Notes under the pieces: generated by a model | The model's input: the letters and a program-made list of their open reading frames with translations, nothing else | Told to the model about the DNA's origin: nothing | The model's database searches: none | Part shown: positions 2,629-3,362 of the stretch, piece by piece | Numbering within the stretch: position 1 is the first letter of the stretch | How the letters are laid out: each line of letters starts with the position of its first letter | Assembly (NCBI GenBank): GCA_000004985.1 | Contig: GG738942.1 | Origin: Naegleria gruberi | Taxonomy: Eukaryota | Length of the DNA: 44,269 nucleotides | Strand: one strand, 5' to 3' | Made by a program: the position numbers and the translations under genes

Positions 2629-2701
2629 TCCCCCTTAGCTCAGTCGGTAGAGCGTCAGACTGTTAATCTGCAGGTCGGTGGTTCGAGCCCACCAGGGGGA
2701 G
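2629..2701 (+). tRNA. tRNA-Asn (anticodon GUU), 73 nt
   Basis: Cloverleaf read by eye. Acceptor stem tccccct/aggggga. A-box and D-arm tagctcagtcggtagagc. Anticodon arm tcaga-CTGTTAA-tctgc, giving U33, GUU at 34-36 and A37, with a U27-C43 mismatch. Variable loop aggtc. T-arm ggtgg-TTCGAGC-ccacc (B-box GGTTCGAGCCC). Discriminator G. A T-run follows downstream. Unusual points: a U1:A72 first pair, and a body that resembles tRNA-Lys(UUU). Confidence 0.75.
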
Positions 2702-2707
2702 ATATCA

Positions 2708-2713
2708 TTTTTT
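2708..2713 (+). terminator. Pol III terminator T-run (TTTTTT, then cTTTTc) 7 nt after the tRNA 3' end
   Basis: catTTTTTTcTTTTcgg lies immediately downstream of the discriminator base. Confidence 0.55.
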
Positions 2714-2774
2714 CTTTTCGGACCAACAAAAAAGTAAATTTTTATAATTAAATTAGTACTATTTAAGACAAAAA

Positions 2775-2892
2775 GACTACAGCACCACAGGTTCCCAAGT
2801 TGTCTCCAACCTCAGTACTGATGTGGCTCGACGATGCTTAACTTCTCAAATCGGACGGGATGAGGTGCATTCATCGTGATATGGCCGTAGCC
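2775..2892 (-). rRNA. 5S ribosomal RNA gene (118 nt), with a TTTTT terminator on the minus strand (plus-strand A-run 2770-2774)
   Basis: The reverse complement reads GGCUACGGCCAUAUCACGAUGAAUGCACCUCAUCCCGUCCGAUUUGAGAAGUUAAGCAUCGUCGAGCCACAUCAGUACUGAGGUUGGAGACAACUUGGGAACCUGUGGUGCUGUAGUC. This carries the canonical 5S ends (GNCUACGGCCAUA ... GGUGCUGUAG), the CCCGUCCGAU...AGUUAAGC core, and a GGUUGGAGACAAC..GGGAA segment that I recall from fungal (S. pombe-like) 5S. It lies convergent with the tRNA, about 70 bp between the 3' ends. Confidence 0.9.
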
Positions 2893-2985
2893 ATCAATAA
2901 TCTAAATTCTTAGTATAATAACTTAAAAGTTACAGGTTGTAATTTGTTGTTAAATATTAATGATCACTGATTCAATTAGTATTTT

Positions 2986-3028
2986 GGACGGGAAGCCTGC
3001 CAGGAATATGGCGACAATCCCGCTACAG
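2986..3028 (-). pseudogene. Degenerate 5S rRNA-derived fragment (relic)
   Basis: ggacgggaagcctgcc--aggaatatggcgacaatcccgctacag aligns to the 5S 5' region (ggacgggatgaggtgc...atatggccgtagcc), sharing GGACGGGA, ATATGGC and a CUGUAGCG-like end. It is too diverged and truncated to be functional. Confidence 0.35.
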
Positions 3029-3305
3029 TCTTTGACTGTATGAACAGTGAAGGCAACGAAGACAGAATCTTGTTGGTTCAGTAAGGTTTTGTTGAAGAAA
3101 TTTATAAGGTTGATCAACCTCGTATTTATTGAACATTAGACATGTTGAATAGCTTGATGCAAATTTTGGTTTCTTATTTTCTTTTCAATTCGAAATTGAA
3201 ACTTCACCTTTGAATTATTTACTGAATTGAAGTTAATTTACATCTTTTTCAACTTGGTAACCTAATTTGTGGTGCTTCAGTATTATAATGTTCAATATCC
3301 TTCGT

Positions 3306-3362
3306 TGTTGATTTTAAGTTGGACTGGTTGAGGTGTATTCATCGTGGTAAGGCCACCCCATC
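3306..3362 (-). pseudogene. Partial 5S rRNA pseudogene fragment (about 55 nt, covering roughly 5S positions 5-60)
   Basis: The minus strand reads GGUGGCCUUACCACGAUGAAUACACCUCAACCAGUCCAACUUAAAAUCAACAACG. The intact 5S reads ACGGCCAUAUCACGAUGAAUGCACCUCAUCCCGUCCGAUUUGAGAAGUUAAGCAUCG. About 80% identity over the first 35 nt, decaying after that. Confidence 0.5.

What the first reader, a model, noticed from the sequence alone, without database searches (positions are those of the whole stretch)
2629..3362. Pol III micro-cluster: tRNA-Asn convergent with an intact 5S rRNA gene, followed by two decayed 5S relics
The 5S gene (2775-2892, minus strand) was not obvious from the ORF track. It faces the tRNA-Asn gene with about 70 bp between their T-run terminators. 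Two further minus-strand segments, 2986-3028 and 3306-3362, are recognisably 5S-derived but degenerate. The arrangement suggests a former small tandem 5S array that decayed to one functional copy, or repeated 5S retro-insertion at a Pol III hotspot. Dispersed 5S genes next to tRNAs hint at lineage and can act as chromatin-boundary or integration-target sites.
Basis: seen in the sequence. Interest (0 to 1): 0.5.

Follow-up and report, generated by a model that had tools for sequence, protein, structure and literature searches.

The report
Naegleria 5S gene, tRNA, dead copy
This is an ordinary, intact 5S ribosomal RNA gene of the amoeba Naegleria gruberi, lying tail-to-tail with a tRNA-Asn gene and next to one scrambled dead 5S copy; this genome is already known to carry about 280 scattered 5S copies, so the finding is routine.

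Summary
The core observation holds. tRNA-Asn(GTT) lies at 2629-2701 (+) and a full-length 5S rRNA gene at 2774-2892 (-). They are convergent, with 72 nt between their 3' ends.

Of the two claimed relics, one is real and one is not.
- 3306-3362 is 5S-derived. 5S positions 1-45 map to 3359-3316 on the minus strand (82% identity, beyond all shuffles).
5S positions 91-117 map to 3250-3281 on the plus strand, inverted relative to the gene (p<=0.0015).

The window is Naegleria gruberi nuclear DNA. A 2012 paper (PMC3369914, Table S1) lists 279 5S hits on 117 scaffolds of this genome. That list appears to include this gene, and this relic at what looks like the allelic locus.

Gene and relic share no flanking similarity, which argues against a decayed tandem array with spacers. 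I read the locus as one working member of a dispersed, birth-and-death 5S family plus one scrambled pseudogene. The tRNA adjacency cannot be shown to exceed chance. Interest is low.

The parts
2629..2701 (+). tRNA-Asn (anticodon GTT) gene, with B box GGTTCGAGCCC at 2680-2690
   Evidence: Rfam RF00005 67.9 bits, full length; ARAGORN. The B-box pattern occurs only once in the window.
2708..2718 (+). T-run terminator of the tRNA gene (TTTTTT C TTTT), starting 7 nt after the tRNA 3' end; a second TTTTT lies at 2739-2743
   Evidence: Read directly from the sequence. The function is inferred from the general rule that Pol III terminates at T-runs.
2770..2774 (-). T5 terminator of the 5S gene (AAAAA on the + strand); its first T is the last 5S residue. 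A back-up T6 lies on the minus strand at 2733-2728.
   Evidence: Read directly from the sequence. The L004 copy ends the same way, with GTAGTCTTTT.
2774..2892 (-). Intact 5S rRNA gene, 119 nt
   Evidence: RF00001 105.4 bits, model 1-120. Canonical fold, z = -2.6. One substitution away from an independent Naegleria-type copy in metagenome contig L004. PMC3369914 Table S1 lists a 117-nt hit at scaffold_98:2773-2889.
2913..2920 (-). TATA-like element TATTATAC at -28 to -21 of the 5S gene
   Evidence: Read from the sequence. L004 has ATTATAG at -24 to -18 although the rest of its flank is unrelated. PMC3369914 reports a TATA box upstream of N. gruberi 5S genes.
3316..3359 (-). 5S pseudogene, 5' piece: 5S positions 1-45. 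A lenient alignment runs on to position 61 at 3303.
   Evidence: blastn 82% identity, E = 1e-5. Direct repeat D1. Score 43 against a null maximum of 31.
3250..3281 (+). 5S pseudogene, 3' piece in inverted orientation: 5S positions 91-117 with a 5-nt insertion
   Evidence: p = 0.0000-0.0015 in 2000 shuffles. Inverted repeats I1 and I7. The colinear minus-strand alternative is not better than chance (p = 0.6-0.9).
2986..3028 (-). Claimed second relic; not supported as 5S-derived and treated as ordinary spacer
   Evidence: Only 8-mer and 7-mer seeds. p = 0.05-0.27 on the exact segment and 0.26-0.86 on the wider one. No similarity to the real relic (p = 0.96).

Best explanation
The locus holds two ordinary, independently transcribed Pol III genes of Naegleria gruberi in a gene-free spacer of about 1.2 kb.

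The 5S gene (2774-2892, minus strand) is one working member of the organism's dispersed chromosomal 5S family. It is presumably driven by its internal control region plus a TATA-like box near -25, and it stops at a T5 run. The tRNA-Asn gene (2629-2701, plus strand) uses its own A and B boxes and stops at a T6 run. Because the genes are convergent and each has its own terminator, they cannot be co-transcribed.

About 360 bp upstream of the 5S gene lies one dead 5S copy. It has a 5' piece (positions 1-45) in the same orientation as the gene and a 3' piece (positions 91-117) in the opposite orientation. Positions 62-90, which cover most of the internal promoter, are not recognisable, and the RNA would not fold.

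Similarity between gene and relic stops at the ends of the transcribed sequence. The relic is therefore most simply a product of the gain-and-loss (birth-and-death) turnover typical of dispersed 5S families. A copy of 5S sequence alone, without spacer, landed beside an existing Pol III gene. It was either broken when it arrived or was rearranged afterwards.

Shown: the identities, coordinates and orientations; the lack of flank similarity; the dispersal of the family. Inferred: promoter use, expression, and how the relic arose.
For: - Gene identities and integrity.
- Organism: the NmrA ORF is 98% identical, and the PRP16-type helicase ORF 96% identical, to N. gruberi predicted proteins. The helicase protein's contig is 44269 bp long, exactly the window length.
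- Family is dispersed: PMC3369914 Table S1 lists 279 hits on 117 scaffolds. The median gap is 34 kb, 20 hits are truncated (<113 nt), and 64 have a neighbour within 5 kb. An independent copy (L004) has unrelated flanks apart from a TATA-like box and GAT at -3 to -1.
- Relic pieces are significant.
- Relic is dead: -13.8 kcal/mol, z = +0.79; no Rfam hit even at E <= 10.
- No flank similarity between gene and relic.
- Same geometry in the published list: a lenient alignment gives a 99-nt hit at 3354-3256, 363 nt from the gene. This matches the scaffold_54 pair 275852-275950 / 276314-276430.
- Precedent: filamentous fungi have birth-and-death 5S families in which 18-83% of copies are pseudogenes, many truncated (Rooney and Ward 2005, as cited in PMC5555474).
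Against: - Expression of this particular 5S copy was not tested.
- Nothing positive identifies the copying mechanism: no poly-A tail, no target-site duplication, no recognisable mobile element.
- The 3-nt GAT shared just upstream of position 1 could mean a little flank was copied, or could be chance.
- The inverted 3' piece is short (27 aligned bases). A lenient colinear alignment over 99 nt also exists (69 identities), so a single strongly decayed same-strand copy is not fully excluded.
- The rest of the N. gruberi genome could not be fetched. Whether such scrambled copies recur, or whether 5S genes sit near tRNA genes more often than chance, is unknown.
Confidence: 0.8

Rival explanations
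1. Decayed tandem array. Two or three head-to-tail 5S units, each a gene plus spacer, once stood here. All but one have decayed.
For: - The 5' piece of the relic has the same orientation as the gene, 468 nt away start to start.
- In the published N. gruberi list, 64 of 279 hits have a neighbour within 5 kb, so local duplication does occur.
Against: - The flanks of gene and relic share no similarity (p = 0.34-0.79). Neutral spacer should be about as conserved as the relic itself (82%).
- The supposed middle unit (2986-3028) is not better than shuffles.
- The 3' piece is inverted.
- Neighbouring copies elsewhere are mostly 1.4-3.5 kb apart, not 0.47 kb.
Confidence: 0.12
2. RNA- or cDNA-mediated capture at a Pol III-associated break site. 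Pieces of abundant 5S RNA or cDNA (or short templated patches copied from a 5S gene) were inserted, in either orientation, during repair of a break in the spacer next to active Pol III genes. This is a specific mechanism for the 'sequence-only copy' part of the best explanation.
For: - Similarity is confined to the transcribed sequence and begins at or within 3 nt of position +1.
- Two short pieces in opposite orientation lie about 20-35 nt apart.
- Dispersed family members share only the transcribed region and a TATA-like box.
Against: - No A-rich tail and no target-site duplication were seen.
- The order of the pieces (sense 3' piece first, then the inverted 5' piece) is the reverse of what LINE twin priming gives. 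This rests on my own knowledge of Ostertag and Kazazian 2001.
- It is a single case.
- No 5S fragments lie next to the three tRNA genes in 54 kb of other Naegleria-type loci.
Confidence: 0.3
3. The relic is one copy of a dispersed 5S-derived short mobile element (SINE-like), not a local pseudogene.
For: PMC3369914 Table S1 has two hits of 98 and 99 nt with the identical similarity value on scaffold_54 (144229-144326 and 275852-275950), plus ten other short hits of the same ID series.
Against: - One of those two hits is most likely the allelic copy of this very relic, with the same 99-nt span and 363-nt gap.
- The relic lacks 5S positions 62-90, which cover most of the internal promoter a 5S-derived SINE needs.
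- There is no tail, no target-site duplication, and no second copy in the readable part of the window.
Confidence: 0.04

Closest known systems
Dispersed 5S rRNA gene family of Naegleria gruberi (PMC3369914, Table S1: 279 BLAST hits)
   Same: Same organism and same gene sequence class. The family is chromosomal and not linked to the 18S-5.8S-28S unit. An upstream TATA-like box, an internal control region and a T-run are reported there and seen here. A hit at scaffold_98:2773-2889 lies within 3 nt of this gene. The 99-nt + 117-nt pair on scaffold_54 has exactly this locus's geometry.
   Different: That paper scores the arrangement as 'tandem' and lists the truncated hits as putative genes. It does not mention the tRNA neighbour or the scrambled structure of the relic. 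Identifying the window with scaffold_98, and as allelic to scaffold_54, is my inference from lengths and coordinates, not a direct sequence comparison.
Birth-and-death 5S families with truncated pseudogenes in filamentous fungi (Rooney and Ward 2005, as cited in PMC5555474)
   Same: The genes are scattered, only the transcribed region is conserved between copies, and a sizeable fraction of copies are truncated and dead.
   Different: The lineage is unrelated (Heterolobosea). No RIP-type mutation bias is visible in the seven substitutions of the relic. The inverted 3' piece is not a described feature there, as far as I know.
[quoted passage not shown]
   Same: 5S genes are dispersed, some lie immediately next to tRNA genes, and the organism may manage without a classical TFIIIA. 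PMC3369914 found no TFIIIA in N. gruberi.
   Different: In Yarrowia the 5S gene lies 3' of the tRNA on the same strand and is transcribed as a fusion. Here the genes are convergent, each with its own T-run, so co-transcription is impossible.
5S-derived SINEs and Cassandra TRIMs (listed in PMC10946416)
   Same: These are short non-coding elements that carry part of a 5S sequence.
   Different: They keep the 5S internal promoter and are multi-copy, with tails or LTRs. The relic here lacks the promoter core, has no tail or repeats, and is known from one locus.

Membership tests
5S rRNA gene (Rfam RF00001), for 2774-2892 | Covariance-model score above the gathering threshold over the full model | tested here: met
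   105.4 bits against 38, model positions 1-120, no non-canonical pairs flagged.
5S rRNA gene (Rfam RF00001), for 2774-2892 | Three-way junction fold with helices I-V | tested here: met
   The minimum-free-energy structure is the canonical Y shape, -41.5 kcal/mol, z = -2.6.
5S rRNA gene (Rfam RF00001), for 2774-2892 | Pol III signals: internal box A-like AGTTAAGC, a T-run directly after the 3' end, and an upstream TATA-like box as reported for N. gruberi | tested here: met
   AGTTAAGC at 5S positions 49-56; T5 at 2774-2770; TATTATAC at -28 to -21. The PMC3369914 consensus is given. The box C match is only partial.
5S rRNA gene (Rfam RF00001), for 2774-2892 | Transcribed and incorporated into ribosomes | not testable with these tools
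   No expression data are available here.
tRNA-Asn gene, for 2629-2701 | tRNA covariance-model score, cloverleaf with GTT anticodon, B box, downstream T-run | tested here: met
   67.9 bits; ARAGORN Asn(gtt); GGTTCGAGCCC; T6 at 2708-2713.
Tandem 5S rDNA array (repeat unit = gene + non-transcribed spacer) | Two or more head-to-tail units whose spacers are also similar | tested here: not met
   Flank alignments are no better than shuffles (p = 0.34-0.79). The tools found no direct repeat beyond the 39-nt 5S segment.
Tandem 5S rDNA array (repeat unit = gene + non-transcribed spacer) | All units in one orientation with a constant period | tested here: not met
   The 3' piece of the relic is inverted. 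The claimed middle unit at 2986-3028 is not significant.
Dicistronic tRNA-5S gene (Yarrowia type) | 5S gene 3' of a tRNA gene on the same strand with no terminator between them | tested here: not met
   The genes are on opposite strands and convergent, and each is followed by its own T-run.
5S-derived SINE | 5S-related head that retains the internal promoter (boxes A, IE, C) | tested here: not met
   5S positions 62-90 have no significant counterpart in the relic.
5S-derived SINE | Many dispersed copies with a common body and tail and target-site duplications | not testable with these tools
   The N. gruberi genome could not be fetched. There is no second copy in the readable 17 kb of the window.
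LINE-mediated processed pseudogene | 3' A-rich tail and flanking target-site duplication | tested here: not met
   None is visible around 3250-3359.

The most novel reading that the evidence does not exclude
Pol III genes in Naegleria might act as landing sites for 5S-derived sequence. Scrambled 5S fragments such as 3250-3359 would then recur next to tRNA and 5S genes across the genome, either as a small 5S-derived mobile family or as a signature of RNA-templated break repair at Pol III loci. This would also explain how a roughly 280-copy 5S family spread over chromosomes that carry no other rRNA genes.
Probability: 0.06. Interest if true: 0.55.

Novelty: already known. Interest (0 to 1): 0.13.

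Why it matters
It matters little. The locus adds one annotated example to a dispersed 5S family that has been on record for N. gruberi since 2012.

Two small corrections to the record follow:
- At least one of the 'putative 5S genes' in that published list is a dead, scrambled fragment. The copy number of 279 is therefore an overestimate of working genes.
- The coordinates in that list show a scattered family rather than the tandem one the paper's summary table states.

In Naegleria the 5S genes are the only rRNA genes on the chromosomes. The large rRNA genes are on a roughly 4000-copy circle (PMC7714845, PMC10112140). How 5S dosage is kept in step with them is a fair question, but this locus does not make it testable.

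Tried and rejected
- Rfam at E <= 10 on 2300-4300 found neither relic. The covariance model is insensitive to 40-nt fragments, so pairwise alignment against dinucleotide shuffles was used instead.
- Fetching the N. gruberi genome failed. Exact look-ups of window proteins found nothing. The N. gruberi hits P0001 and P0074 are not retrievable.
- The synteny route failed. The NmrA neighbourhoods of N. lovaniensis (L001), a Logan assembly (L002) and a JGI contig (L003) are not syntenic and hold no 5S gene. The SpoU-methylase fragment found no homologues. The helicase search returned no usable Naegleria orthologue other than the window's own protein.
- Pattern scans for the Naegleria-specific 5S stretch gave one metagenome contig (L004) and nothing in viral or prokaryotic genome collections.
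- The colinear same-strand reading of the relic's 3' half was rejected as the supported alignment (p = 0.6-0.9), although a lenient alignment exists.
- LINE twin priming was considered for the inverted piece and rejected on the order of the pieces and the lack of a tail.
- Similarity between 2986-3028 and the real relic was rejected (p = 0.96).
- The Fritz-Laylin 2010 genome paper is not in the held library.

Full report
**What is there.** The sequence between 2629 and 3362 was read directly and scanned with Rfam and ARAGORN.
- Rfam at gathering thresholds finds exactly two RNA genes in the 44,269-base window.
- The first is a tRNA at 2629-2701 on the plus strand (67.9 bits). ARAGORN calls it tRNA-Asn with anticodon GTT.
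- The second is a 5S rRNA at 2774-2892 on the minus strand. It scores 105.4 bits against a gathering score of 38, covers the full model (1-120), and has no non-canonical pairs flagged.
- On its own the 5S sequence folds into the canonical three-way junction (-41.5 kcal/mol, z = -2.6).

The two genes are convergent.
- Their 3' ends are 72 nt apart.
- The tRNA is followed by T6 at 2708-2713, then CTTTT.
- The 5S gene ends in a T5 run (2774-2770 on the minus strand).
- Each strand also has a second T-run further into the spacer.
'About 70 bp' describes the distance between the gene ends; the T-runs are 56 nt apart.

**The relics.** I aligned the 5S gene against the neighbouring DNA on both strands. 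Scores were compared with 1000-3000 dinucleotide-preserving shuffles of the target.

*Segment 3306-3362.* This one is real.
- 3316-3354 matches 2848-2886 without gaps at 82% identity (blastn E = 1e-5; direct repeat D1).
- The local score is 43, against a null mean of 15.9 and a null maximum of 31.
- By eye the match continues to 5S position 1 at 3359 with one deleted base. It is preceded by GAT, as in the gene.

*Segment 2986-3028.* This one is not supported.
- It shares only TCCCGTCC and GCCATAT with 5S.
- On exactly the claimed bases, with lenient gap costs, p is 0.05-0.27.
- With 15 more bases on each side, p is 0.26-0.86.
- It has no similarity to the true relic either (p = 0.96).

- It matches 5S positions 91-117: CAACTTGGtAACC, a 5-nt insertion, then TGTGGTGCT. 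That is 21 of 22 bases, then 3 of 5.
- p lies between 0.0000 and 0.0015.
- The repeat finder reports the same match as inverted repeats I1 and I7.
- On the minus strand, the part of the relic beyond 5S position 61 is no better than chance (p = 0.6-0.9).
- A very lenient alignment can still be drawn across 3354-3256 (99 nt, 69 identities).

The relic is best described as a scrambled copy. It has a 5' piece in the orientation of the gene and an inverted 3' piece 20-35 nt away. The core of the internal promoter (positions 62-90) is unrecognisable. As RNA it has no stable fold (-13.8 kcal/mol, z = +0.79). Rfam does not report it even at E <= 10.

**Where the window comes from.**
- The NmrA-family ORF at 5111-6019 is 98% identical to a predicted protein of Naegleria gruberi and 64% identical to one of N. 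lovaniensis.
- The PRP16-type helicase fragment at 94-951 is 96% identical to another N. gruberi predicted protein. That protein's contig is 44,269 bp long, exactly the window length.
- The window is therefore probably one whole small scaffold of the N. gruberi NEG-M assembly. More than 60% of it is N.
- It is probably an allelic version of part of the 326,815-bp scaffold that carries the 98% NmrA homologue. This last point is inference.

**What is already known.**
- In Naegleria the 18S, 5.8S and 28S genes are on a circular extrachromosomal element of about 4000 copies. They are absent from the chromosomes (PMC7714845; abstracts).
- A 2012 comparative study searched the NEG-M genome for 5S genes. 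It reported 279 hits, not linked to the rDNA unit, with an internal control region and an upstream TATA box. It found no recognisable TFIIIA (PMC3369914).
- I parsed that paper's Table S1. The hits lie on 117 scaffolds with a median distance of 34 kb between neighbours.
- Only 64 hits have another hit within 5 kb, and 20 are shorter than 113 nt.
- The family is therefore scattered, with occasional loose pairs, although the paper's summary table says 'tandem'.
- One entry, scaffold_98:2773-2889, is within 3 nt of the gene in this window.
- The closest pair in the whole table is scaffold_54:275852-275950 (99 nt) and 276314-276430 (117 nt), 363 nt apart. That is exactly the span and spacing I get for relic and gene here with lenient scoring (3354-3256 and 2892-2776).
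- The gene, and the relic at what looks like the allelic locus, are therefore already listed. The relic is counted there as a 'putative 5S gene'.

**A second copy for comparison.** A pattern scan for a Naegleria-specific stretch of the 5S sequence found one metagenome contig, L004.
- Its 5S gene scores 106.3 bits and differs from the window's gene at a single position.
- It sits between coding sequences with no tRNA gene on the contig.
- Its flanks are unrelated to those in the window (p = 0.69-0.96).
- The exceptions are a TATA-like box (ATTATAG at -24 to -18, against TATTATAC at -28 to -21 here) and GAT at -3 to -1.
- This is the pattern of a dispersed family in which only the transcribed region and a short upstream element are kept.

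**How the relic arose.** If gene and relic were two units of a former tandem array, their spacers should resemble each other about as much as the relic resembles the gene. They do not.
- 120 nt upstream of each give p = 0.74-0.79.
- The downstream sides give p = 0.34-0.68.
- The supposed third unit also fails, and one piece is inverted. Together this argues against the decayed-array reading.
- Similarity that starts at position +1 and is confined to the transcribed sequence fits copying of 5S sequence alone.
- No positive hallmark of retroposition is present: no tail and no target-site duplication.
- The order of the two pieces is the reverse of what LINE twin priming produces. That mechanism is recalled from my own knowledge.
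- I therefore commit only to this: the relic is a by-product of the gain-and-loss turnover seen in other dispersed 5S families. One example is filamentous fungi, where 18-83% of copies are pseudogenes (PMC5555474). The copying mechanism stays open.

**The tRNA neighbour.**
- Convergent orientation and separate terminators rule out a Yarrowia-type tRNA-5S fusion transcript (PMC2566860).
- One adjacency cannot establish an association. With about 280 5S genes and on the order of a thousand tRNA genes, roughly one or two chance pairs within 100 bp are expected in 41 Mb.
- That tRNA number is a rough guess from 4 tRNA genes in about 72 kb of Naegleria-type sequence seen here.
- The other 5S copy available (L004) has no tRNA gene on its 2-kb contig.
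- The three tRNA genes in 54 kb of related loci have no 5S fragment near them.
- Boundary or integration-target roles remain speculation.

**Verdict.** The locus is a routine member of a family already on record. Interest is low.

Noticed in passing
window 1-44269: The window length equals the contig length recorded for the N. gruberi protein P0074 (44269). The window is probably one whole small NEG-M scaffold, more than 60% N (runs at 953-2009, 4029-5084, 16115-36037 and 37921-42812). It is likely an allelic haplotig of the 326,815-bp scaffold that carries the 98% identical NmrA homologue.
   Followed up: partly
PMC3369914 Table 1 vs Table S1 (not a window coordinate): The paper scores N. gruberi 5S genes as tandemly arranged. 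Its own coordinates put 279 hits on 117 scaffolds with a median gap of 34 kb. At least one listed 'putative gene' (the 99-nt hit on scaffold_54) appears to be the scrambled relic described here.
   Followed up: yes
window 2010-2528 (-): A SpoU-methylase-like ORF starts about 100 bp from the tRNA-Asn gene and runs in the opposite direction. Pfam SpoU_methylase matches it (E = 1.4e-13). The 173-aa fragment found no homologue at E <= 1e-15 in the 5.8-billion-protein search, not even an N. gruberi protein.
   Followed up: no
window 8750-10999 (+): A 749-aa uninterrupted ORF, rich in Cys and His clusters, has no Pfam match and no exact entry in the protein collection. It could be a lineage-specific or transposon-derived gene.
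   Followed up: no
window 12930-13619 and 13728-14441 (-): Two adjacent ORFs of about 230 aa look like tandem paralogues. They share a motif (KLPLNCSTSMSVVFP) and have hydrophobic, signal-peptide-like N-termini.
   Followed up: no
window 14948-15673 (+): This ORF contains three tandem repeats of about 30 aa (…KHDTGRSIS.EVVKVNNTGDSRVFSQQTGGS…) after a calponin-homology-like start.
   Followed up: no
window 2893-3700: About 800 bp upstream of the 5S gene have no ORF longer than 66 aa on either strand. That is a long non-coding stretch for this compact genome. Apart from the 5S relic, nothing recognisable was found in it.
   Followed up: partly
CERE literature (PMC7714845, PMC10586121): [quoted passage not shown] 5S genes such as this one are chromosomal.
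   Followed up: partly
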